Made by a program: the position numbers and the translations under genes. From Mobula hypostoma (lineage: Eukaryota), in the NCBI RefSeq assembly GCF_963921235.1, contig NC_086108.1, positions 18,290,001 through 18,354,000 on the forward strand: a DNA stretch of 64,000 bases. Direction: 5' to 3'. Positions 11,641 through 63,894 of the stretch are shown here, in pieces (position 1 is the first letter of the stretch; each line of letters opens with the position of its first letter). Below the pieces are notes generated by a model. It was not told the DNA's origin. It was given only the letters and a program-made list of their open reading frames with translations, and searched no databases.

Positions 11641-13296
11641 CGGTCAAGAGTTCATCATTATTGTACAAGAGGTCCACTCAAGAATCTTATCACAGTGGGA
11701 CAAAAGCTGTCCTTTAGCCTGCTGGTAAATGTTTTCAAGCTTTTGCATCTTTTGCCTGATTGAAAGGGGAGAAAAGAAGAGGGCAGGGGTCTTTGATTAT
11801 GTTCGCTGCTTTCCTGAGGCAGCAAGAAGTATAATTACAGAGACCTCAGTAATCAATGTCCATTGTGTACAGCACATGGTGCTCCCTCTGTAATCAATGC
11901 CCTCTGTAGGCAGAGATTATAATCATTGTCTTCTCTAGACATGACCTCTGGATTGTGATCTCATTAGACAGTAGTCTTTGTGAACAGTGTGGATTGTGCT
12001 GTCTGTAGACATTGCCTCTGTAGACATGATCTGTCTTCACAGTCCTTCTCTGTGGGCAGTGTCTTTTGTAGGTCATGTTGTCAGAGTGCTCCTTATGGCC
12101 CACTGGTACATACTGTGTAGTGACATGAAACAGCTTCAAACTGGTACTCATTCAAGTTCCCTTTCAAGTTATCAGCTCTCCAGAGGAAAAAGGCCATTTG
12201 TGTTTCTTCAGCTCAGCCTGTGGCACAAAATTTCAGTGCCTTCACCGCCCCAACTTGATGCTTGAAGCAAGGCCATCATGTTGGAGCAAGACATGCAACT
12301 TCCACTGCATTGCTTGCACACCTGCTTCCAAGCCCACCCTCGCTGGACAGATTTGACACCTTTCAGGAATTCCTGAGCCAGTTTGGGAATTCTCAGGAAG
12401 GAGTAGCTTGGGTAACAAGTTATGCAAATAAAACTTCTTTCCAGCAGATTTGCAGGTTCAGAATCCCAAGACGAATGAGTGAAGTATCTCTGTTTCTTAG
12501 TCCATGGAAGTGATTGACATTGGGAATCTTGTAGTATCACCCATCGTTAAAACCTCTAGTCAACTAAAATGCTAAGTTGAAGTTATTCTCTTGTGTACAA
12601 GTATAGTGAGGTACAGGTACTGAGAAAAAATTACTTGCGGTATCATCACTAGCACATCAATTTAGACAATACAGGATATCGGTTATACATAGATTATATA
12701 TAGTGAAGAAAAAAAGACTGCAAAACAAAAAGTAAGTTAAACAACACAATCAGAGACAGTTCCAGATTAGTGCAAGAGGTGATTTGTATGGCTCCATTGC
12801 TGAGATAGTGTTAGAGTTATGCAGATTGGTTCAGGGATCTTTTGGTTGTAAGAGAGTAACTGTTCTTGAACCTGGTAGTGTGGGACTTGAGGCTTCTCTA
12901 CTTCCTGCTTGATGGTAGCAGTGAAAAAAGGCATAACCCAGATGGTTGATAATCCTCGATGGTAGATGCTGCCTTCTTGAGGGAGCACCTTCTGCAGGTG
13001 CTGAAGATTGTGGGGAGGGCTGTGCCATTGATGGACCAGGCTGTGTCCACTACGCTATTCAGCCTCTGTGTTACTGTGCGTTGGGATTACTGTGTTTTGT
13101 CATTGTGGATTCACTCAAGATGCTTCCATTGGTGCTTCTGCTGAAGTTTAGACAATTTGGTGACATACCCTTTCCAATGATTGTCCTAGGTAATATTGAA
13201 CCAGGTGGCCATTGGTCTTTCCCTGGAGTGGGTAGGGGGGATAGGCGGGCTTGGGGATTTACTCAGTGCACTAAAAGGCATTGCATTGTATTGCAG

Positions 13297-13547
13297 AGTT
13301 GAGTATTCGGGGAGCACAGGAAGAGGATCCACCAGACCCCCAGCTCCTGCGACTGGACAACATGCTGCTGGCAGAGGGTGTGGCTGGACCGGAGAAGGGC
13401 GGAGGTTCTGCCTCTACTGCTGCAGCTGCCGCTGCTGCCACCTCTGGGGGCTCGAGCACAGACAACTCAGCAGAGCACACTGACTACCGGGCTAAACTGA
13501 CACAAATCCGGCAGATCTACCACACAGAGCTTGAGAAGTACGAACAG
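13297..13547 (+). CDS. PBX: PBX-family (pre-B-cell leukemia homeobox, TALE class) internal coding exon, PBC-A/B region (equivalent to exon 3 of human PBX genes); paralog unresolved
   Basis: Translates (E)[83 protein letters not shown], the PBC domain with its poly-Ala linker. Acceptor ttgcag|AG at 13296/13297 (phase 1); donor CAG|gtaaac at 13547/13548 (phase 0); 251 nt. Confidence 0.95.
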
Positions 13548-41340: not shown

Positions 41341-41964
41341 ACTAGGATAACTAGGGAGAGGGTTGGACCACACATGGATAAAGAGGGGAACATTTGCTTG
41401 GATGTGGAGAATGTGAGTGAAGTACCAGATGAGAATTTTGCTTCAGTATTTACCAAGGAAATGGAGGACTAGGAGATCAGTGCTGAGCGTATAAATATGT
41501 TAGGACGTTTAGAGTTCAAGGAGGAGGAAGTGTTGGGCCTTCTAATGAGTATTAATGTGGATATGTCTCCAGGGGATTTACACCAGGTTTTGAAGGAGGC
41601 AAGAGACAAGATTGCTGGGCCCTTGACCAGGATCTTTGTGTCTTCTCTAGCCATAGGTGAGGTCCCAGATGACTGGTGTGTGGCTAATGTTAAGCTTCTT
41701 TTTAAGAAGGGAACAAGGAAGAATTCTGGGAAGTATAGACTGATGAGTCTCACATCGGTTGTAGGGAAATTGTTGGAGAACATAATTAGGGATGGAGTAT
41801 ATGAGCATTTGGAATGGTCAGGCATAAAAGAATGCCGTGGAATTCACCTAATTAGGAGGAGCCAGCAAGGCTTTGTGTGGGTTAGGTCGTGTCTTACCAA
41901 CTTAATAGAGTTTTTTGACAAGGTGATGAGAGAGATTGATGAGGGTAGAGCAGTGGATGTTGTC

Positions 41965-42883
41965 TGTTACGTACCCCGTAACTGGGTTGCCAAACCAGCA
42001 GAAATGGATCACTCAGTTGGAGTCTGGATTACTGGAACTAAGAAAGTTTTATTAAAGAAACAAGCAACACAGTACTCTAATCAAAAGGATAATAACTGCA
42101 ACAGTTCAGCAATGATAAACACACATGTACACAGAATTAGGATAACAGGATCAATCAAGCTCTATCGTCGACTAGGGGTAAATGACCAGTTTCAAAGTGA
42201 CGCAAAGTTCAGTTCAATTGAGTTCAGTTCAGTTCACAGTAATCACTGCCGTGGCGATGGACGGGGGGTGGGGGGAGGGAAGGAGAGAGAGAGCAAAAGC
42301 GAATGAATATTCAAACGGCTTCCACACAGACCTTCGATATTCTTTGCAGTCAGCTTTCGGGAGAGCCCTTTGTAATGTCTTCTGAGGTCACCGACTGTGA
42401 CCCCTCCGTTTTCAGATACGATTGTTTCTCTGCAGTGAACCTGGCACCCAGGCAAGGGCAGACACACACCAGGTTCCCGCCGATCGTACCTTTCCACCCC
42501 GTGCGTCTATGTCTTGGTCCCGCGACCAGCCCTCCAAACCTCCAACCAACTTGTGGGAGGCGCACCGCTTCCAGGGTCTCATTACCTTGTGGTGTCGTGT
42601 GTGTCTTGCCTTAGCGATCCTGTCCCTTTTTATCCCCCTGCTGGGGTATCGCCTGTCCATCACTTCAAACAGTTCAGGGTTCAAAGAGAAGCCAATCTTG
42701 ACAGCTCTCAGACCGTGTCTCCTCCCGTTAATCTCTCCCGTCCCTTCATTAACATCTCCAAATGCTGCTCCATTGTTTTCCTTATCTCTCTTTCTCCTGA
42801 AGACAGGTGGCAGACCAACTGCTGATCCCACTGGTGCCAACACAGGACAGTTAACATCTTAGTCTATGTGTACTTTCGTCACA
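41965..42883 (-). repeat. 3' LTR (919 bp)
   Basis: Direct repeat of 46097-47009; preceded on the minus strand by the PPT-like AAAGTTGAGGGG (42884-42895). Confidence 0.95.
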
Positions 42884-43055
42884 CCCCTCAACTTTAAGGA
42901 TTTTTACCAGGGTAAAAATTACAAACATGAATACATTATTTGATACACACAAATATACATCTTCATCAGCTATTTGGCTAATACAGCGAATTTGAAGTTG
43001 TCAACACCTGACAGACAGTCAGCAATCACATTTTCTGTTCCTTTTATATGTGTTA

Positions 43056-44303
43056 TTAATAATCCCTTAAACCAGGCTCCAACTTAGCAAACTTCATAGT
43101 GGCCGAAAACACTGATGAATTGCGATCAATGTAACCTCTCATTGGGTTTCGTCCCGGACCACAATAACAAGGGTCGTCCCATCCCGACTTAGTTTTCTTT
43201 CGCAAGGGCTTAGTAGGAGGGGGAGGGGTAGTAACCGCAGAGTTATTGCAAAACTTCCTACAGTCCCCCACCATCTCCAAGAGCCTTCTGAGGGCCCTCT
43301 TGTCTGTCGGGGTTGGGATGTCAGAGATAGCCCGCACCTTAGCTTGCATCGCTGCCAGCTGCCCCTGTGTCACCACAATTCCCAGATAAGTGACCTTCGT
43401 GTGGCCGAACTCATTTTTTTCAAGGTTCACTATCAAGCTGGCTTCAGACAGCCGTATTACATCGCCAATACACACCTCTGTGTTCGTTAGCCCTTTCGTC
43501 ACTGAATTACTCATTCTATAGGGGTGTTGCTCACTAGGCTGACCTAGCGTGACAAACACCACCCAACGTCCCAGTTCTTTGCATCGCCTCGGGACAATCA
43601 AACACACGTGTGCGAGCCGTTTAATTACTTCTCCTATAGAGTCGCTTTGTTCGGGGATTAAGGGAGAGACCTTATCAGCAGAGCTGGCCAAAACAATAGC
43701 CTTCTCCCAACTGGTCGATACCATACTCATCTTTTCAAAATGGTTTTTTTCTCTTATCAGGGGGACCCTAGCTTCATTGATTTCCGCGCTAACACCAACT
43801 AGGTTTGTTAGCATATCAAAAGCCTGTGACTGTCTCAGTTCGCATCTGCCATAATCAATAACATCCTTCCTCCTGTGCAGCTGGTAAACCTCTTTCACGT
43901 TTCCACCAACTGTTTCCTCCAGCACCGCAAAATGTCCACCGAGGGGTACCTTGTGGGCCAGGTTAAAAATCTCATCCCCATAACTCTTTTGCACCACGCC
44001 CAATTCCTCATCTGCGGGTACGGTACTTGGTCTCCCTTTCTTCCTTAGCACTTCCTCCTCCACACAATAGCCTACTGGCTCCCTTCTTAACTCTGCGTCA
44101 GAGAGAGCTGTCTCCGCCAAAACCATCAGCTCCTCGTCTCGCTCCTGCGCCTGCACAAATTCTTTCCTGGCTAATGCTAAGTCTGTCTCAGCTCTCTCAC
44201 TACCTCTTGTTTCACTACACTCCTTCTTTTCACTTTCTACCTCCTCCTGGTACGTCTCAGCTAAATTTACTTCAGCAGTCCCGGGATGAACCTGTGAGTC
44301 CAT
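43056..44303 (-). pseudogene. Pol-remnant ORF (415 aa): eroded integrase Zn region, RT fragments and RNase H remnants; catalytic cores missing
   Basis: AHKVPLGGHF (IN Zn-region remnant), QHPYRM (RT start), VCIGDV where YxDD is expected, VNLEKNEFG..VTYLG..AKVRAI..PTP..LRRLL; ITHIKGTENVIADCLS lies just past the stop in another frame. Confidence 0.75.
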
Positions 44304-45997
44304 GGGCTGGCAGGCTGACCTGTCAATCTCACGGCTGGGAACACGATTCCTCCGGCGAGGTCATTACCGAGCAAGACTTCCACGCCTTTCATCGGTAATT
44401 CGGGCCTCACCCCGATTGTGACTAGTCCAGAGACCAGGTTGCTTTGTAGGTGTATCTGGTGCAAAGGGACTGCCTCTGTCCCTTCCCCAATACCTTTGAC
44501 CTTGACCTCCCCAGTCTGGGTCTCTGAACTAAACTCTAATACACTCTTCAATATCAATGACTGACACGCTCCCGTGTCTCTCCAGATCCGCATTGGAACT
44601 GGTTTTAACCCCTCCTTCACCGACACCAATCCGGCCGAGATAAACCTCTCGCGCCCTTCCTGAACTTTGGCAGACCTTTCCTCTCCTAGCAGTTCGTTTA
44701 CCAGCTCGATACAGCCAGTCAAAATCACCGTTTTTCCTTTTCCCGTCTCCTTCTTTGGGGCAAAGCACCTGGACGTAAAGTGTCCGACTTCCCCACAATT
44801 ATAACAAACGACCCCAGGAGACTTCCTACCAGACTGCTCCCGGTCTACCTTATTCTTCTCACTAGTCCCCAGCTTACTTTCTGACTTTTCTGGTGGACTC
44901 TCCCCGCCGTCCTGACTACCCTTCTGGTAGCCTTTACTCGGGGCAAACTTCATTTTATGCATCAATGTGTACTCATCCGCTAACTTAGCAGTTGCGGCTA
45001 ACGTGGCTGCCTCTTTCTCATCTAGGTAGGGCCTCATACCCTCAGGGACACAACCTTTAAACTGCTCAATCAGGATCAGCTGTAGCAGTCTGTCATAATC
45101 CCCATCTACCCCCTTCGAGGCGCACCAACGCTCACAATATGTCTGCATCTCACGGGCAAACTCTAAATACGTGCGGTCCCACTGCTTCCTCGCATTCCGG
45201 AACCTCTGCCGGTATGCCTCCGGGACCAACTCATAAATCCTGAGGATGGCCTCTTTCACCACCTCATACCTCTGGGCATCTTCCGCGGACAAAGCTGAGT
45301 AAGTTTGTTGGGCCTTCCCTTTAAGTACACTCTGAAGCAAAACAGCCCACTTATCCCTCGGCCAGTCCTGACTTGTAGCAACATTTTCGAAATGGAGAAA
45401 GTACCGATCCACATCGGTATCATCAAATGGGGGAACCAGCCTAACCTCCTGGGTCGCCCTGAACCCTCCACCTTGGTTCGGCATGGGCCCCTGCGCTGCC
45501 ATCATCTTTAACTTCTCCAGCTCAAATTCCCTTTCCCTCTGTTTCTCCAACTGCCTCTCTTCTCGCTCCAACTGTGTCTCTCTCTCTCTCTCTCCTGCCT
45601 TTCTAACTCTCTCTCTCTCCTGCCTTTCTAACTGTTTCTCTTTCTCCTGCCTTTCTAACTCTCTCTCTCTCTCTCTCTCTCTCTCCTGCCTTTCTAACTG
45701 CTTCTCTTCGTGTTCTAACTGCCGTACCCAGAACTCGTGCTCGAGTCTCAGTTTTTCAAGCTGTACCTGTACCGCGTCTCCAGCAGGCTTTTCGATAGAC
45801 ACCACCTCCAGCTCCCTTTGGGGAAACACACCTTTAGATACATAGTGCTCTACGATAGCTCTGTGTATCTCCTCTCTCCTCATTGTCGACTTCCCCTTAA
45901 CAAGATTCAACCGTTTGGCCACAGCTGCCAATTCCACTTTCCTGGCATCCTCTAATGCCTCCAAGGTTGGCGCCTTTAGAAATTCCTCAGTCTCCAT
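44267..45997 (-). CDS. Retrotransposon Gag-protease polyprotein with SCAN-like capsid domain, CCHC knuckle and aspartic protease (576 aa)
   Basis: E/R-rich coiled coil; LVPPFDD..YFLHFE..WP..W; PEAYRQRFR..LLQLILIEQF..LADEY (SCAN-like); CYNCGEVGHFTSRC; RDTGACQS..LLGNDL. Confidence 0.88.
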   Translation of the reverse strand: METEEFLKAPTLEALEDARKVELAAVAKRLNLVKGKSTMRREEIHRAIVEHYVSKGVFPQRELEVVSIEKPAGDAVQVQLEKLRLEHEFWVRQLEHEEKQLERQERERERERELERQEKEKQLERQERERVRKAGERERETQLEREERQLEKQREREFELEKLKMMAAQGPMPNQGGGFRATQEVRLVPPFDDTDVDRYFLHFENVATSQDWPRDKWAVLLQSVLKGKAQQTYSALSAEDAQRYEVVKEAILRIYELVPEAYRQRFRNARKQWDRTYLEFAREMQTYCERWCASKGVDGDYDRLLQLILIEQFKGCVPEGMRPYLDEKEAATLAATAKLADEYTLMHKMKFAPSKGYQKGSQDGGESPPEKSESKLGTSEKNKVDREQSGRKSPGVVCYNCGEVGHFTSRCFAPKKETGKGKTVILTGCIELVNELLGEERSAKVQEGRERFISAGLVSVKEGLKPVPMRIWRDTGACQSLILKSVLEFSSETQTGEVKVKGIGEGTEAVPLHQIHLQSNLVSGLVTIGVRPELPMKGVEVLLGNDLAGGIVFPAVRLTGQPASPWTHRFIPGLLK

Positions 45998-46066
45998 TTC
46001 TGCTGTTTGCCTTTTCTTTCTTTCGGGAATTTTAACCCAATCAATTTACTCCGTCCCAAATTTAGC

Positions 46067-46092
46067 GTTCAAAATCCCGGACGAGAACCCCA
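46067..46092 (-). promoter_or_regulatory. Primer-binding site complementary to the tRNA-Pro 3' end
   Basis: Minus strand TGGGGTTCTCGTCCGGGATTTTGAAC, 4 nt from the LTR, versus the tRNA-Pro complement TGGGGGCTCGTCCGGGATTTGAAC. Confidence 0.85.
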
Positions 46093-46096
46093 CTTA

Positions 46097-47009
46097 TGTT
46101 ACGTACCCCGTAACTGGGTTGCCAAACCAGCAGAAATGGATCACTCAGTTGGAGTCTGGATTACTGGAACTAAGAAAGTTTTATTAAAGAAGTAAGCAAC
46201 ACAGTACTCTAATCAAAAGGATAATAAATGCAACAGTTCAGCAATGATAAACACACATGTACACAGAATTAGGATAACAGGATCAATCAAGCTCTATCGT
46301 TGACTAGGGGTAAATGACCAGTTTCGAAGTGACGCAAAGTTCAGTTCAATTGAGTTCAGTTCAGTTCACAGTAATCACTGCCGTGGCGATGGACCGGGGG
46401 GTTGGGGGGGGTGAAGGAGAGAGAGAGCAAAAGCGAATGAATATTCAAACGGCTTCCACACAGACCTTCGATATTCTTTGCAGTCAGCTTTCGGGCGAGC
46501 CCTTTGTAATGTCTTCTGAGGTCACTGACTGTGACCCCTCCATTTTCAGATACGATCGTTTCTCTGCAGTGAACCTGGCACCCAGGCAAGGGCGGACACA
46601 CACCAGGTTCCCGCCGATCGTACCTTTCCACCCCGTGCGTCTATGGTTTGGTCCCGCGATCAGCCCTCCAAAACTCCCACCGACTTGTGGGACGTGCACC
46701 GTTTCCAGGGTCTCGTTACCTCGTGGTGTCGTGTGTGTCTTGCCTTAGCGAACCTGTCCCTTTTTATCCCCCTGCTGGGGTATCGCCGGTCCATCACTTC
46801 AAACAGTTCAGGGTTCAAAGATCTTGACAGCTCTCAGACCGTGTCTCCTTCCGTTAAACTCTCCCATCTCTTCATTAACATCTCCAAATGCTGCTCCATT
46901 GTTTTCCTTATCTCTCTTTCTCCTGAAGACAGGTGGCAGACCAACTGCTGATCCCACTGGTGCCAGCACAGGACAGTTAACATCTTAGTCTATCTGTACT
47001 TTTGTCACA
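46097..47009 (-). repeat. 5' LTR (913 bp)
   Basis: Direct repeat of 41965-42883 with scattered substitutions and small indels; followed on the minus strand by the PBS. Confidence 0.95.
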
Positions 47010-50000
47010 TGTCTATATGGATTTTAGTAAGGCATTTGACAAAGTCCCTCATGGGAGGCTAATCCATAAGATTAAGATGCATGGGGTCCACAGCATATTG
47101 GCTGTTTGGATTCAAACTGGCTTACGCATAGAAAAGAGGGTAGTGGTGAAAAGACTTAGTTGAGCTGGAGGTCTGTAATTATTGGTGTTCCACAGGGATC
47201 TGGATGAAATGATCCGGATGAAAATGTAGATGGGTGGTGAGTAAATTTGCAGATGATACCACAATTTGAGTTGAGTTGTAGAGTTGTGGATAGTATAGAA
47301 AACTGGCAAAGAATATAGCACAATATAGATCAGTTGCAAATAAGGGCAGAGAAATGGCAGATGGAGCTTAACCCAGAAAATTGTGAGGTGTTGCACCTCA
47401 GTAGGGCAAATGCAAGGAGACAGTACACAGTTAACAGCAGGGTCCGTAACAGTGTTGCTGAGCAGAGAGACCTTGAGATCCAAGTTCATATGTCCTTGAA
47501 AGTAGCTACACAGGTCAATAAGGTGGTTAAGAAGGCTTATGGAATGCTTGCTTTTATTAGTTGAGGCACTGAATTAAAAATCATAAGGTAACATTGCAAT
47601 TTTATAAAACTCTGATTAGGCCACATCTGGAATATTGCATCCAGTTCTGGTTACCCCACTATAGGAAGGATGATGAGATTTTGGAGAGGGTTGCAGAAGA
47701 GGTTTACCAGGATGCTACCTGGTTTAGAGGGCATGTGCTATCATGAGAGGCTGGATAAACTTGAGCTGTTTTCTCTGGAGTGGCAGAGGCTGAGGTAAGA
47801 TCTGATAGAGGTTTATAAGGTTATGAGAGGCATGGATAGAGTAGACAGGGAGTATCTGCTTCCCAGAGTAGAAATGTCCAATAGCAGAGGGTATGCATTG
47901 AAGGTGAGAGGAAGTCCATTCAAGGGGAATGTGAGGGGTAAGTTTTTTAGCCAGAGTCATGAATGCCTGGAATGTGCTGCCTGGTATGCTGGTAGAGGCA
48001 AATACCCATTAGGGGCATTTAAGAGACACTTACATGGATGTAAGGAACTGCAAAATGATGTCTCAACTCTTCAACTCAATACCTCAGTCTATGAAAGCCA
48101 GCATGCCAAATATCTTTTTCACTAACTTATGCACCTGTGTCACAACTTTCATAGAGCTATAGACTTTTATTCCAAGGCCTCTCTGTACGTCAACACTTGT
48201 AAAGTTACTGCCACTTACTTTATATATGCTATCAGAATTTACTGTATACTTCAAGAGTATTTCCTCACATTGATCTGAATTAAATTCCATTTGCCACCAA
48301 TCTGCCCAACTTTCCACTTGATAGTTTTAACTGATGATCCTTAGACAATCTCAGAAACCAGATCATAAAGCAATACAGCACAGGACAGGCCACTCTGCCC
48401 CACAGTGTTGTGTTGACCTTTTAACATACTCTTAAGATCAATCTAACTCTTCCCACCTACATAGCCTTTCATTTTCCTGTCATCCATGTAATTATCTAAG
48501 AATCTCTTAAATGTCCCTGATATATCTGCCTCTACCAACACCTTTGGCAGTGCATTCCATGCACCCACCGCTTTCTTTGTCAAAGCAAACTTACCTCTGA
48601 CATCCCCCTGTACTTTCCTCTAATCACCTAAAAATTATGTCCCTGCTATTAATCATTTTCAGCCTTGGAAAATGTCTTTGACTGTCAGACTCTGACTCAA
48701 ATTCATTTATTTATCACATATACATTGAGACATTAGGTGAAATATGTCATTTGTGTAACAACCAACACAACCTAATGAAGTGCTGGGGGCAGCCACACCT
48801 TCAGACATCAGCATAGCATGCCCACAATGTTCAGCAGAACAACGGCAACAAAACCTTTTTCTCTTTGCCGTCCACCCACCTTTATGTCAACTCATCTCCT
48901 CTCTCAAATTTAATCAGTGTACACCTATTATGATGCCTGATCTCATTATAGCACCAAGTATCAAATTGAGGCTTATTCTATGATGTCACAATTTGGCTCA
49001 ACCAATTAAAGATATATCAGCTCATTGAAAGATACTTGGATATCCACATTGAGAATAGGTTGATGAGTTAGGGCTATTCCCTTTGGAGAGGAAGGTGTTA
49101 AAGATAATAAAAGGCATAGACAAGAGTGAACAGCCAGATACGTTTTTCCTAGTTGCACAAATGGCCGATACGATGGGAGATAATTAAGGTGTTTGGAAGA
49201 ATGTACTTGCACATGGTGTCAGAGGTAGGTTTTTTTCACACAGAGCGGTGGGTGCATGAAACCCACTGTCAGGAGTGCTGGTACAGGCGGATACATTAGG
49301 CATATTTAAGAGATTCTTAGAAAAGCACATGGATGAACGAAAAATGGAAGGCTTGTAGGAGGGAAGTATTAGATTGATCTTAGAGTGGGTGAAAAGGTCA
49401 GCTCAATATTGTTGGCAGAAGGGCCTGTACTGTGTCTGATGTTCTATGTTCATCCACCCATTCATACAAACATACAGTCCTCCAATCCCAAGACAGGCCG
49501 AGCCTCCAGCCTCCAATGGATTCATGGACATTGGTTTTTGACTTCTCCAGTGGACTAATAGACCTAGGGCTTCGACTGTTGGGTCTCTACTTCTGGACTT
49601 TGGATTGACCTTCGAGCTTTGATCTTCAGTATTGACCTCAAGACTCACTGATGATGAATGAGGACCCTGGATGAGGACTCCAAACTTCAGGCTTCAAACT
49701 CCAGGCTCACTGATTCGCAAACTTAGGGGTCACCAGCTCTCTTATCTCCTGACTGCATGGATCTCCAATCCCACATGATTTGTTAGAGGGTAGATGGCAT
49801 TAAGTTGGAAAGAATGTAAAGGAAATTTCTGAGGATGTTGCCAGGACCTTAGTTATGGAGAGAGCTTGTGAAAGTTGGAATCTGTTTTGCAATGGTGTGT
49901 AGGGGAATGAGGAGTGATCTTATGGAGATGTATTTGAGGGACATAAAGAGGGTATTTGTACACAGGGTTAGAAAATCACCAACTAGAGGGCATAGGTTTT

Positions 50001-50530: not shown

Positions 50531-53180
50531 AACACTTTCAGTATGCTGGATGAACTCAGCAGGTCAGGCAGCATCAGTTAGAAATGATGAGTCGACGTTT
50601 CGGGCCAGAACCCTTCGTCAGGACTGAAGAATGAAAGGTGGGAAAGCTTGTAGCTTCAGTTGAAAGACTAGTAATTTGAAAGACAAAGGGATGGGGGAGG
50701 GGAAGTATTGACATCATAGCCCTGAAAACAATGGGTAGTAGAAGAAGGAGGCAGAACCACGAGGGAGCTGGGGGAGGGGGTAGAGTGAAATAGGGATAGA
50801 GGAAGGGAGGGGGAGGGAATTAGCGGAAGTTGGAGAATTCAATGTTCATACCAAGGGGCTGGAGACTACCTAGACGATATATGAGTGTTGCTCCTCCAAC
50901 TCATCATGGCAGTAGAGGAGGGCATGTATGGACATATCTGAATGGGAATGGGAAGCAGAGTTGAAGTGGGTGGCTACCGGGAGATCCTGTCTGTTGTGGT
51001 GGATGGAATGGAGGTGCTCAACGAAGAGGTCTCGAAATCTGTGTCAGGTTTCACCGATGTAGAGGAGGCCGCACCGGGAGCACCGGATGCAATAGATAAC
51101 CCCAACAGACGCACAAGTGAAGTGTTGTCTCACCTGGAAGGACTGTTTGGGGCCCTGAATGGTTGCAAGAGATGAGGTGTAGGGACAGGTGTAGCACTTA
51201 CGTTTACAGGGATGAGTGCCGGGTGGGAGATCAGTGGGGATGGATGTGTGGATAAGGGAGTCGCAGAGGGACCGATCCCTGCGGAAAGCGGAGTTCTGTT
51301 GAAGGTGGCAGAAATTGCGGAGGATAATGTGCTGGATCCGGAGGCTGGTGGGGTGGTAGGTAAGGACAAGGGGAACTCTGTCCCTGTTGTGGTTGCGGGA
51401 GGATGGGGTGAGGGCCGAAGTGTAGGAAATGGAGGAGATGTGGGTGAGGGCATCATTGATGACGGTAGAAGGGAAACCACGATCCTTAAAGAAAGAGGAC
51501 ATTTGAGATGTCCTGGAACGGAAAGCCTCATCCTCGGAGCAGATACGGCGGAGACGGAGGAACTGGGAATAGGGAATAGCATTTTTGCATGTGGTGGGGT
51601 GGGAAGAGGTGTAATCAAGGTAGTTATGAGAGTCAGTGGGCTTGTAGAAAATGTCAGTGGACAGTCTGTCTCCAGAGATGGGGACCGAGACATCGAGAAA
51701 GGGGAGAGAAGTGTCCGAGATAGAGCAAGTGAATTTGAGGGCTGGGTGGAAGTTTGAAGTAAAGTCGTTGAAATTGACCAGCTCAGCATGGGTGCAGGAA
51801 GCAGCATCAATGTAGTCATCAATGTACCGAAGGAAAAGTTGGGGAGCAGTACCAGAATAGGTTTGGAGCACAGACTATTCCACATAACCAACGAAGAGGA
51901 GACTATAAACTATGCAGACCCATAGTTTCTGCCTGTTCCTGTCCCACTGAACTTGTATCTGCCTACCTGGACTCCATTTTGTCACTCATAGTTCAGTCCC
52001 TCCCCACCTACATCCAGGATACATCCCATGCCCTTCACCTCTTCAATAACTTCCAATTCCCCGGTCCCAACTGCTACATTTTTACTATAGATGTCCAATC
52101 CTTATACACCTCCATTCCCCATCAAGAAGGCCTCAAAGCCCTCCACTACTTCCTGGATAATAGACCTCACCAGTTCCCCACCACCACTACCCTCCTCCGG
52201 TTGGTGGAACTGGTTCTCACACTTAATAACTTCTGTTTTGGCTCTTTCCACTTTCTTCAGACTAAGGGTGCAGCTATGGGAACTCGCATGGGACCCAGCT
52301 ACGCCTGCCTCTTCGTTGGTTATGTGAAACAGTTTGTGCTCTGAACCTATTCTGGTACTGCTCCCCAACTTTTCCTTCGGTACATTGACGACTACATTGG
52401 TGCTGCTTCCTGCACCCATGCTGAGCTGGTCAATTTCATCGACTTTACTTCAAACTTCCACCCAGCCCTCAAATTCACTTACTCTATCTCGGACTTCTCT
52501 CCCCTTTCTCGATGTCTCGGTCTCCATTCCTGGAGACAGACTGTCCACTGACATCTTCTACAAGTCCACTGACTCTCAAAACTACCTCAACTATACCTCT
52601 TCCCACCCCACCACATGCAAAAATGCCATTCCCTATTCCCAGTTCCTCCGTCTCCGCCACATCTGCTCCGAGGATGAGGCTTTTCATTCCAGGACATCTC
52701 AAATGTCTTCTTTCTTTAAGGATCGTGGCTTCCCTTCTACCGTCATCAATGATGCCCTCATCCGCATCTCCTCCATTTCCCGCACTTCGGCCCTCACCCC
52801 ATCCTCCCACAACCACAACAGGGACAGAGTTTCCCTTGTCCTTACCTACCACCCCACCAGCCTCCGGATCCAGCACATTATCCTCCGCAACTTCCGCCAC
52901 CTTCAACAGAACCCCACCACTAAGCACATCTTTCCCTCTCCACCCCTCTCCGCTTTCCGCAGGGATCGGTCCCTCCACGACTCCCTTATCCGCAAGTCCA
53001 TCCCCACTGATCTCCCACCCTGCACTTATACCTGTAAGCATAAGTGCTACACTTGTCCCTACACCTCATCTCTTGCAACCATTCAGGGCCCCAAACAGTC
53101 CTTCCAGGTGAGACAACACTTCACTTGTGAGTTTGTTGGAGTCATCTATTGCACCCAGTGCTTGTAGACTATATAGTGTT
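50531..53180. mobile_element. Penelope-like retroelement insertion with inverted structure (RT plus GIY-YIG)
   Basis: Minus arm ORF 51044-51871 (FLRYIDD..GVIYCIRCSRCGLLYIGET); plus arm 51979-53167 (DVQSLYTSIP, GAAMGTRMGPSYA, YIDD); 14-bp TSD at 50517-50530 and 53181-53194. Confidence 0.9.
50590..50625 (-). ncRNA. Minimal type I hammerhead ribozyme-like motif, best-preserved copy
   Basis: Minus strand AGTC-CTGACGA-AGGGTTCTGGCCC-GAAA-CGTC-GACT; stem I AGTC/GACT, stem II GGG/CCC, palindromic ACGT stem III, GUC site. Confidence 0.7.
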
Positions 53181-56005: not shown

Positions 56006-56197
<192 letters not shown>

Positions 56198-62352: not shown

Positions 62353-63800
62353 CATAGAAACATAGAAACATAGAAAATAGGTGCAGGAGTAGGCCATTCG
62401 GCCCTTCGAGCCTGCACCGCCATTTATTATGATCATGGCTGATCATCCAACTCAGAACCCAGCCTTCCCTCCATACCCCCTGACCCCTGTAGCCACAAGG
62501 GCCATATCTAACTTCCTTTTAAACATAGCTAATGAACTGGCCTCAACAGTTTGCTGTGGCAGAGAATTCCACAGATTCACCACTCTCTGTGTGAAGAAGT
62601 TTTTCCTAACCTCGGTCCTAAAAGGCTTCCCCTCTATCCTCAAACTGTGACCCCTCGTTCTAGACCTCCCCAACATCGGGAACAATCTTCCTGCATCTAG
62701 CCTGTCCAATCCCTTTAGGATCTTATACGTTTCAATCAGATCCCCCCTCAATCTTCTAAATTCCAACGAGTACAAGCCCAGTTCATCCAGTCTTTCTTCA
62801 TATGAAAGACCTGCCATCCCAGGAATCAATCTGGTGAACCTTCTTTGTACTCCCTCTATGGCAAAGATGTCTTTCCTCAGATTAGGGGACCAAAACTGCA
62901 CACAATACTCCAGGTGTGGTCTCACCAAGGCCTTGTACAACTGCAGTAGTACCTCCCTGCTCCTGTACTCGAATCCTCTCGCTATAAATGCCAGCATACC
63001 GTTCGCCTTTTTCACCGCCTGCTGTACCTGCATGCCCACTTTCAATGACTGGTGTATAATGACACCCAGGTCTCGTTGCACCTCCCCTTTTCCTAATCGG
63101 CCACCATTCAGATAATAATCTGTTTTCCTATTTTTGCCACCAAAGTGGATAACTTCACATTTATCCACATTAAATTGCATCTGCCATGAGTTTGCCCACT
63201 CACCCAACCTATCCAAGTCACCCTGCATCCTCTTAGCATCCTCCTCACTGCTAACACTGCCACCCAGCTTCGTGTCATCCGCAAACTTGGAGATGCTGCA
63301 TTTAATTCCCTCATCCAAGTCATTAATATATATTGTAAACAACTGGGGTCCCAGCACTGAGCCTTGCGGTACCCCACTAGTCACCGCCTGCCATTCTGAA
63401 AAGGTCCCGTTTATTCCCACTCTTTGCTTCCTGTCTGCTAACCAATTCTCCACCCACACCAATACCTTACCCCCAATACCGTGTGCTTTAAGTTTGCACA
63501 CTAATCTCCTATGTGGGACCTTGTCAAAAGCCTTTTGAAAATCCAAATATACCACATCCACTGGTTCTCCCCTATCCACTCTACTAGTTACATCCTCAAA
63601 AAATTCTATGAGATTCGTCAGACATGATTTTCCTTTCACAAATCCATGCTGACTTTGTCCGATCATTTCACCGCTTTCCAAATGTGCTGTTATCACATCC
63701 TTGATAACTGACTCCAGCAGTTTCCCCACCACCGACGTTAGGCTAACCGGCCTATAATTCCCCGGTTTCTCTCTCCCTCCTTTTTTAAAAAGTGGGGTTA
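62353..63800 (-). mobile_element. Young 5'-truncated CR1 LINE with an uninterrupted RT C-terminal ORF (~450 aa), tail-to-tail with the preceding CR1
   Basis: ORF 62452-63876 is intact from TPLFKKG through FADD to the end; (ATAGAAAC)n tail at 62354-62378. Confidence 0.93.
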
Positions 63801-63894
63801 TGGTATATGAAACAAGCTGCCTGAGGAAGTGGTTGAGGTGGGTACAATAATTTAAGAGACATTTGAACAGGTACATTGATAGGAAGGCTTAGAG

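What the first reader, a model, noticed from the sequence alone, without database searches (positions are those of the whole stretch)
41965..47009. Complete non-autonomous SCAN-bearing Gmr1-like LTR element with an intact Gag-protease
Seen: two ~915-bp LTRs, TGTC TSD, tRNA-Pro PBS, PPT, and a stop-free 576-aa ORF with coiled coil, capsid/SCAN-like domain, CCHC knuckle and DTG protease. Established: Gmr1-like gypsy elements carry integrase before RT and are the proposed donors of the SCAN domain of vertebrate SCAN-zinc-finger genes. Inference: this is a relatively recent, structurally complete copy of a family that encodes its own capsid and protease but needs RT and integrase in trans. It sits antisense in a PBX intron.
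Basis: partly seen in the sequence, partly recalled or inferred. Interest (0 to 1): 0.7.

Follow-up and report, generated by a model that had tools for sequence, protein, structure and literature searches.

The report
Enzyme-less SCAN retrotransposon family in rays
This is one aged, broken copy of an abundant devil-ray jumping-gene family that kept its capsid and protease but cut its copying enzymes down to a dead stub that still stays in reading frame, so it must borrow those enzymes from another element.

Summary
The element is real: LTRs of 913 and 919 bp (K2P 3.7%), TGTC target duplication inside a CR1, imperfect Pro-like PBS, antisense in a 42.5-kb PBX intron. The 576-aa ORF has SCAN, CCHC and a retropepsin fold. 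So the 576-aa end is a frame break, not the family's stop. Gag-protease diverges about half as fast as the stub (8-10% vs 18-22%), which points to selection in cis. Eight of nine stub junctions keep frame, one M. birostris protein is a half-deleted intermediate, and stingray relatives keep a different open junk tail. Likely mechanism: own Gag packages own RNA, a helper supplies RT and integrase, as in mouse IAP 1-delta-1. The helper was not found; no genome was held. This copy is old-grade and decaying. New variant of a known kind.

The parts
41961..41964 (.). Target-site duplication TGTC, left copy
41965..42883 (-). 3' LTR, 919 nt, TG...CA
42884..42895 (-). Short polypurine tract (10 of 12 purines)
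43009..43062 (-). C-terminal piece of RNase H, 15 of 18 identical to the Pristis polyprotein P0124, in a third frame: the one out-of-frame junction of the stub
43056..44360 (-). Stop-free 434-aa frame; from about 44,306 down it is the pol stub: pre-integrase linker, integrase zinc-binding start (no CC pair), integrase C-end and linker, RT start, degenerate RT motif C, RT thumb, RNase H piece. Junctions near 43,990, 43,922, 43,845 (integrase core lost, about 285 aa), 43,808, 43,515 (RT core lost, 128 aa), 43,454 (18 aa), 43,166 (87 aa of RNase H)
   Evidence: no Pfam family at E<=0.1
44300..44312 (-). Frame break between protease and pol stub in this copy; relatives read through
44339..44668 (-). 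Retropepsin-type protease, aa 444-553, DTG at aa 474
44765..44809 (-). CCHC zinc knuckle, aa 397-411
44954..45223 (-). SCAN / capsid C-terminal domain, aa 259-348
45224..45475 (-). Helical capsid N-terminal part, aa 175-258 (well predicted; no solved match listed for it)
   Evidence: assignment by position is inference
45537..45707 (-). CT-rich repeat array coding an E/R/Q/K coiled-coil-like stretch, length-variable in frame among relatives
44267..45997 (-). 576-aa Gag-protease ORF including its stop
46074..46092 (-). Imperfect tRNA-Pro-like primer-binding site after a 4-nt spacer
   Evidence: tRNA identity recalled, not tested
46097..47009 (-). 5' LTR, 913 nt, TG...CA; AATAAA at LTR position 825
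47010..47013 (.). Target-site duplication TGTC, right copy
41473..41964 (+). CR1 LINE RT interrupted by the element; continues from 47,014
   Evidence: (RVT_1 E 0.022, below cut-off)
13296..13547 (+). PBX-family exon (PBC profile 56-118), upstream of the host intron
56007..56197 (+). Next PBX-family exon (PBC profile 120-180)

Best explanation
A fixed or long-resident, decaying copy of a high-copy non-autonomous Gmr1-like LTR family of devil rays. SHOWN: the family's single ORF is Gag (coiled coil, capsid/SCAN, CCHC), protease and a ~420-aa pol stub without integrase core, RT core or most RNase H; the deletions are shared across copies and species and arose stepwise; Gag-protease changes about half as fast as the stub; this copy has a frame break after the protease. 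INFERRED (about 0.8): the element's own Gag-protease is needed in cis to package its RNA, and a helper polyprotein co-assembling in the same particle supplies RT, RNase H and integrase. INFERRED (about 0.5): the stub is kept open not for its sequence but because translation through to near the 3' LTR favours the RNA (stability against premature-stop decay, or cis recruitment as in IAP 1-delta-1); the protease would trim the stub off. The antisense position in PBX is what purifying selection on intronic insertions usually leaves (general knowledge); no function for the host is indicated.
For: Collinear pol remnants in IN-before-RT order against full-length relatives. Of 36 Mobula-named relatives scored, 19 carry the integrase-core junction (16 M. 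hypostoma, 3 M. birostris), 14 the 18-aa RT junction, 11 the RNase H junction, 9 the same C-terminus; only P0019 continues into an integrase core; most others end before these points. Four distinct loci give one 966-1004-aa ORF. Contigs of runs X5, X18, X19 bridge the junctions near 43,845, 43,515, 43,454 and 43,166; every bin of the stub has summed depth above 100,000 in X1 and X5 against 12.7 for a contig identical to the flank; 133 contigs with unlike flanks leave the LTR edge in X1. Core vs stub differences, window against four relatives: 8.4-9.7% vs 18.3-22.0%, Fisher p 1.5e-6 to 2e-3; same direction in 10 of 10 pairs, p<0.05 in 8. P0247 has three large deletions but not three later indels. 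8 of 9 junctions keep frame; the exception is the last, 84 nt before the old-frame stop; by hand, P about 0.001 at one third each. 2.9-7.5 stops expected on subfamily-level branches, none seen. Stingray sister proteins carry a different open tail, a degenerate repeat of capsid-end to protease (5 HSP-bearing candidates tested plus one: 4 of 6 show it). IAP 1-delta-1 precedent (PMC6466679, PMC7411935 passages).
Against: No helper was found: no full-length Mobula polyprotein among the 120 best of 996 longer hits; best full-length matches to P0247 were 43% and 38%. All relatives but the window copy are annotated proteins, which favours open frames. Many have broken tails; P0004 and P0006 share one frameshifted tail though not sisters (1% of bootstrap trees), and P0003 and P0025 shift at a similar place, so either homopolymer slippage recurs or shortened frames can spread. 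The strict A-versus-B stop test alone is not significant (P0 0.055). Counting only the four large deletions and the terminal one, P is 0.045. No DNA of other whole copies, so no true dN/dS; the listed family variants are few (core 4 synonymous:1 non-synonymous, stub 4:8). Three of the copies closest to this one are annotated from an internal Met, so a break upstream of the stub may be common in this grade. No expression data: X18 is only guessed to be RNA.
Confidence: 0.8

Rival explanations
1. Non-autonomous family, but the open stub is an accident: it was packaged by helper proteins or by its own Gag regardless of tail frame, and in-frame junctions reflect chance, microhomology and annotation bias.
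For: A-versus-B stop test P0 0.055; four large deletions alone P 0.045; shared frameshifted tails in P0004/P0006 and P0003/P0025; microhomology at the RT-core junction; sample drawn from annotated proteins.
Against: Four indels that arose after loss of autonomy (absent from P0247) are all in frame; with the stem, 5.2-7.5 stops expected (P0 0.006-0.0006); of the 12 best-supported indels shown (57 in all), the 8 outside the coding part include all multi-contig ones and the 4 inside come from single contigs (LTRs have higher depth, which biases this); convergent open tails in stingrays.
Confidence: 0.3
2. The stub is a working protein module: its RT-thumb and integrase N-terminal remnants dimerise with, recruit or poison the helper's pol, tilting reverse transcription to the parasite's RNA.
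For: RT-thumb piece still 63% identical to P0124 over 73 aa; frame kept; IAP fusion protein acts in cis.
Against: Stub diverges twice as fast as Gag-protease; subfamily substitutions are not conservative (mean BLOSUM -0.07, n=44); it lost Pfam recognition that the intermediate still has; stingray relatives use an unrelated tail.
Confidence: 0.15
3. An ordinary autonomous Gmr1-like element that lost pol by deletions after inserting here.
For: The copy does decay: LTR divergence 3.7%, a frame break, private changes near the neutral ratio (4 synonymous:9 non-synonymous of 13 listed; 30% synonymous expected).
Against: Identical junctions at many loci in two named species and in runs of three organism labels.
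Confidence: 0.02
4. A domesticated SCAN/Gag gene or an antisense regulator of PBX.
For: Stop-free ORFs; SCAN was co-opted from Gmr1-like capsid once in amniotes (bioRxiv 2025.03.03.638093, PMC4592553 passages).
Against: Both LTRs and TSD kept, many paralogues, neutral-looking private changes, no zinc-finger array; absence of stops is unremarkable at this age (expected 1.2 and 1.0, P0 0.31 and 0.37).
Confidence: 0.03

Closest known systems
Gmr1-like Ty3/gypsy LTR retrotransposons (bioRxiv 2025.03.03.638093, 9 passages read; PMC4592553, 7 passages; Emerson and Thomas 2011 seen only as their citation)
   Same: SCAN-like capsid C-terminal domain followed by protease, integrase, RT/RNase H in that order; single ORF; LTRs with 4-bp TSD; abundant in fishes.
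   Different: Integrase core, RT core and most RNase H are deleted in the whole family; non-autonomous.
Mouse IAP 1-delta-1 (PMC6466679, 5 passages; PMC7411935, 3 passages; Saito et al. 2008 not held)
   Same: Non-autonomous, deletion gives one in-frame gag-pol fusion ORF, very successful, needs enzymes in trans; the fusion is reported to act in cis.
   Different: [quoted passage not shown]
Plant TR-GAG elements (PMC8704663, 5 passages)
   Same: Two LTRs, one ORF with Gag, transposes with a helper's enzymes.
   Different: Plant, Gag only; here a vertebrate gypsy-type element with protease and a long open pol stub.
SCAN-zinc-finger host genes
   Same: Share the SCAN fold (Pfam; weak sequence matches to ZNF24, ZNF42 and PEG3 SCAN at E 0.03-0.45).
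   Different: No C2H2 array or KRAB; this is the mobile donor class, not a co-opted gene.

Membership tests
Gmr1-like LTR retrotransposon | Paired TG...CA LTRs with target-site duplication | tested here: met
Gmr1-like LTR retrotransposon | SCAN-like capsid C-terminal domain | tested here: met
   PF02023 50.3 bits over cut-off 27; PEG10 CA-CTD Z 10.1, 84 aligned, rmsd 2.9
Gmr1-like LTR retrotransposon | Domain order protease, integrase, RT, RNase H | tested here: met
   Remnants collinear with P0124/P0127, whose Pfam order is SCAN, H2C2, rve, RVT_1, RNase H
Gmr1-like LTR retrotransposon | Single gag-pol ORF | tested here: met
   Met for the family (four 966-1004-aa ORFs); broken in this copy
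Gmr1-like LTR retrotransposon | RT phylogeny within the Gmr1 clade | tested here: inconclusive
   RT core is deleted; by proxy the Gag-protease tree joins the family to full-length IN-before-RT proteins (33 rows, midpoint root, no named Gmr1 reference)
Gmr1-like LTR retrotransposon | tRNA primer-binding site | tested here: inconclusive
   Pro-like 19-mer next to the 5' LTR, compared with a recalled PBS only
Autonomous LTR retrotransposon | Intact integrase core, RT catalytic motif and RNase H | tested here: not met
Non-autonomous LTR family | Same internal deletions in many independent insertions | tested here: met
Non-autonomous LTR family | Identified autonomous partner sharing LTR ends and PBS | not testable with these tools
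   No genome held; protein searches gave no close full-length partner
TR-GAG | Single ORF encoding Gag only | tested here: not met
   Protease and pol stub present
IAP 1-delta-1 type (works-like only) | Deletion yields an in-frame gag-pol fusion | tested here: met
IAP 1-delta-1 type (works-like only) | Translation of the fusion promotes retrotransposition in cis | not testable with these tools
   Only indirect frame statistics
SCAN-zinc-finger host gene | C2H2 zinc-finger array downstream of SCAN | tested here: not met
   Pfam on both frames

The most novel reading that the evidence does not exclude
In stingrays and devil rays, single-ORF LTR parasites are under a general rule: keep Gag-protease intact and keep translating to near the 3' LTR, whatever the tail says. 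This family met the rule by trimming pol stepwise in frame, its stingray sisters by an in-frame duplicate of gag-protease, and other gypsy families of this genome (unchecked scan notes) by in-frame host mRNA pieces. If its own autonomous lineage is extinct, the family would also be a capsid-autonomous parasite borrowing RT and integrase from a helper only about 45-50% identical in Gag. That would make reading-frame-filtered gene capture a by-product of retrotransposon RNA quality control and give a natural series for testing it.
Probability: 0.35. Interest if true: 0.7.

Novelty: new variant of a known kind. Interest (0 to 1): 0.45.

Why it matters
The single insertion is ordinary. The family is of interest because it is a vertebrate, high-copy, Gag-protease-retaining non-autonomous Gmr1-like lineage with a visible series of deletion intermediates, which lets one measure what a parasite of a retrotransposon must still supply in cis (capsid, protease, an open frame). 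It also supplies many SCAN-bearing ORFs inside host introns, the raw material proposed for SCAN capture, and it contaminates annotation: family copies carry host gene names in RefSeq.

Tried and rejected
Whole-genome search: no genome held, so no copy count, no solo-LTR count and no direct partner search. Pfam finds nothing in the stub at E<=0.1; one hit at E 0.14 (Mago nashi) is rejected as chance. Sequence search of solved structures gave only weak SCAN and nucleocapsid matches (best E 0.0025). No RNA holder listed among 24 runs; not evidence on expression. Summed contig depth was not converted into a copy number, as the tool warns against it. Whether organism B or E has this very insertion could not be told: no junction-spanning record was listed (tables cut). 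The idea that LTR divergence is inflated by mixing of subfamilies: at 5 of 8 listed sites the two LTRs differ and the 5' LTR has the common family letter, at 3 both LTRs share a rarer letter, which fits ordinary post-insertion change (8 sites only). An apparent sister grouping of P0004 and P0006 was an artefact of their shared off-frame tail and vanished after trimming (P0250 and P0013 left out there). Absolute dating with the epaulette-shark rate of 7e-10 per generation (PMC10587355, 7 passages) gives implausibly large ages and was not adopted. Literature: no description of this family or of non-autonomous Gmr1-like elements in rays in the listings (open-access library only; one search showed 20 of 23; Repbase, Dfam and subscription journals not searchable; supplements of the bioRxiv preprint, which survey 68 vertebrate genomes, were not seen and may bear on this). 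Earlier scan notes: none by sequence, words or nearness. No complex prediction was run.
Full report
Observation. The 5,045-bp element at 41,965-47,009 is real and lies on the minus strand. Its LTRs are 913 and 919 nt, begin TG and end CA, and differ at 33 of 911 aligned sites, 12 of them CpG transitions (K2P 0.037). TGTC flanks both ends, and the insertion splits a CR1 reverse-transcriptase motif that rejoins cleanly. The polypurine tract is short. No other copy lies in the window. Two consecutive PBC-domain exons on the plus strand bracket it, so it is antisense in a 42,459-nt intron of a PBX-family gene.

The first ORF. The 576-aa frame is stop-free. Pfam gives SCAN (E 2e-13) and zf-CCHC above their cut-offs and the retroviral protease below it. 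A model of residues 175-565, built on a 50-sequence alignment (mean pLDDT 73.6), matches retroviral and Ddi1 proteases over the C-terminal domain (Foldseek E 3e-4; VIA Z 10.6, 93 aligned, rmsd 4.3) and the PEG10 capsid C-terminal domain over the SCAN region (Z 10.1, 84 aligned, rmsd 2.9).

A second stop-free frame, 44,360-43,056 (434 aa), overlaps the end of the first. It has no Pfam hit, but against full-length relatives with the order SCAN, integrase, RT, RNase H (P0124 of Pristis, P0127) it is a collinear mosaic: pre-integrase linker, start of the integrase zinc-binding domain, integrase C-end and linker, first residues of RT, a degenerate catalytic motif C, RT thumb, and a piece of RNase H. 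About 285 aa of integrase, 128 and 18 aa of RT and 87 aa of RNase H are gone. All matched blocks lie in one frame except the last 18 residues of RNase H, which lie in a third frame just past the stop; the old frame would have ended 84 nt further on.

Family, not decay. The nearest named proteins are from Mobula hypostoma and M. birostris, 87-92% identical in Gag-protease and 85-93% in the stub. Of 36 such relatives scored with junction patterns, 19 have the integrase-core junction (16 and 3 by species), 14 the 18-aa RT junction, 11 the RNase H junction and 9 the same last seven residues; most of the rest end earlier, and one (P0019) runs on into an integrase core. Twenty-three of the 36 read from protease into the stub without a break, and four different loci give one ORF of 966-1004 aa. 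The window copy's 576-aa end is therefore a frame break near 44,306. Whether it is unique to this copy is open: three of its closest relatives are annotated from an internal Met. I laid 4 of 24 listed runs on 41,780-45,525. Run X1 holds a contig identical to the left flank at depth 12.7, while summed depth over every stub bin exceeds 100,000 in X1 and X5; this is no copy number, but 133 contigs with unlike flanks leave the LTR edge in X1. Contigs of X5, X18 and X19 bridge the large junctions, most without gaps. The runs carry three organism labels.

Selection. Between the window copy and four long relatives, capsid-to-protease differs at 8.4-9.7% of 381 residues and the stub at 18.3-22.0% of about 260 (Fisher p 1.5e-6 to 2e-3); across all 10 pairs the direction is the same and 8 reach p<0.05, though the pairs are not independent. 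Since these lineages already shared the deletions, Gag-protease was constrained while the element was non-autonomous, which implies use in cis (inference). Among variants listed (40 shown, 542 not), family-level ones were 4 synonymous to 1 non-synonymous in the core and 4 to 8 in the stub, and those near-private to this copy 4 to 9, close to the neutral 30%; small numbers. That this copy has no stop is unremarkable (P0 0.31 and 0.37).

The open stub. P0247 of M. birostris has the integrase-core, RT-core and RNase H deletions but still holds an 18-aa and a 7-aa piece and lacks a one-codon insertion, and Pfam still recognises its H2C2 and RT remnants: a half-way form. Eight of nine junctions keep frame; by hand, P is about 0.001 if each has one chance in three, and 0.045 if only the four large deletions and the terminal one are counted. 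Four indels that postdate P0247 are all in frame. Subfamily-level amino-acid changes number 44 between two subfamilies and 69 more against P0247; at 0.066 stops per missense change, 2.9 to 7.5 stops were expected and none is seen (P0 0.055 to 0.0006). The substitutions are not conservative (mean BLOSUM -0.07), so frame rather than sequence seems kept. Against: the relatives are annotated proteins, biased to open frames; several have broken tails, and two non-sister copies share one. A sister clade from Hypanus and Hemitrygon has a different open tail, a degenerate second copy of capsid-end to protease (4 of 6 proteins tested). Unchecked scan notes describe other pol-less gypsy families of this genome with in-frame host pieces; I did not test them.

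Helper. None found. The 120 best of 996 longer homologues include no Mobula full-length protein; the best named one is Pristis at 48%. A search of 1.84 billion representatives with P0247 gave full-length matches at 43% or less and P0019 at 73% over 152 residues. P0019 and the Hypanus P0014, both with integrase core, show that a closer autonomous lineage existed. Repeat masking in annotation makes this weak evidence of absence.

Age. The copy sits at the base of the family in both trees, with 7 of 341 private residues in the stub against 0-6 of 344 in the younger subfamily. With a slow shark clock (7e-10 per generation in PMC10587355, passages), 3.7% LTR divergence is not recent; at an assumed 1-2e-9 per site per year and without CpG sites it would be roughly 6-12 million years (my assumption, not a measurement).

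Mechanism. Most likely the family RNA is translated into Gag-protease-stub, which captures its own RNA and co-assembles with a helper's full polyprotein; the helper reverse-transcribes and integrates; the protease trims the stub. Anatomy, sharing and rate contrast are shown; co-assembly, trimming and the reason for the open frame are inferred. The closest working precedent is mouse IAP 1-delta-1, whose in-frame gag-pol fusion is reported to help retrotransposition in cis (PMC6466679 and PMC7411935, passages; the primary paper was not held). Plant TR-GAG elements are the Gag-only parallel (PMC8704663, passages). Gmr1-like order and the SCAN link come from bioRxiv 2025.03.03.638093 and PMC4592553 (passages).

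Verdict. Observation confirmed; interpretation partly supported. Gmr1-like membership is met on LTRs, SCAN, domain order and single ORF, with RT phylogeny inconclusive. I found no description of this family in the listings, but repeat databases could not be searched. New variant of a known kind; interest 0.45, rising to about 0.7 if frame selection on junk tails proves general in rays (probability about 0.35).

Noticed in passing
P0017, P0021, P0023, P0027 (Hypanus sabinus, Hemitrygon akajei proteins): A sister Gmr1-like lineage whose open tail is a degenerate second copy of capsid-end to protease instead of pol: probably a second non-autonomous family (4 of 6 tested; P0022 and P0024 gave no second match).
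   Followed up: partly
P0005, P0009, P0254, P0258: Family ORFs carry host gene names in RefSeq (MACC1, phosphatidylserine decarboxylase, UBE2G2, PPM1L), most likely intronic copies annotated as isoforms.
   Followed up: no
P0247 (M. birostris); run X18 record 10 at window 43,461-43,699: Half-deleted intermediate of the family; one diverged X18 contig leaves the window sequence near the 18-aa junction and may be of the same type.
   Followed up: partly
window 62,452-63,888 (-): 478-aa stop-free CR1 RT frame (RVT_1 E 4e-34), a comparatively young LINE copy.
   Followed up: partly
window 51,044-53,167: Two similar RT-plus-downstream pieces on opposite strands that look Penelope-like (recalled resemblance); only a weak RVT_1 hit, E 3e-4.
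   Followed up: partly
window 42,903-42,920: Short perfect inverted repeat (eight-base arms) just upstream of the PPT (seen); role unknown.
   Followed up: no
window 41,965-47,009: CpG observed/expected is about 0.6 across the element against 0.24-0.30 in the flanks: less decayed than the surrounding LINE debris.
   Followed up: no
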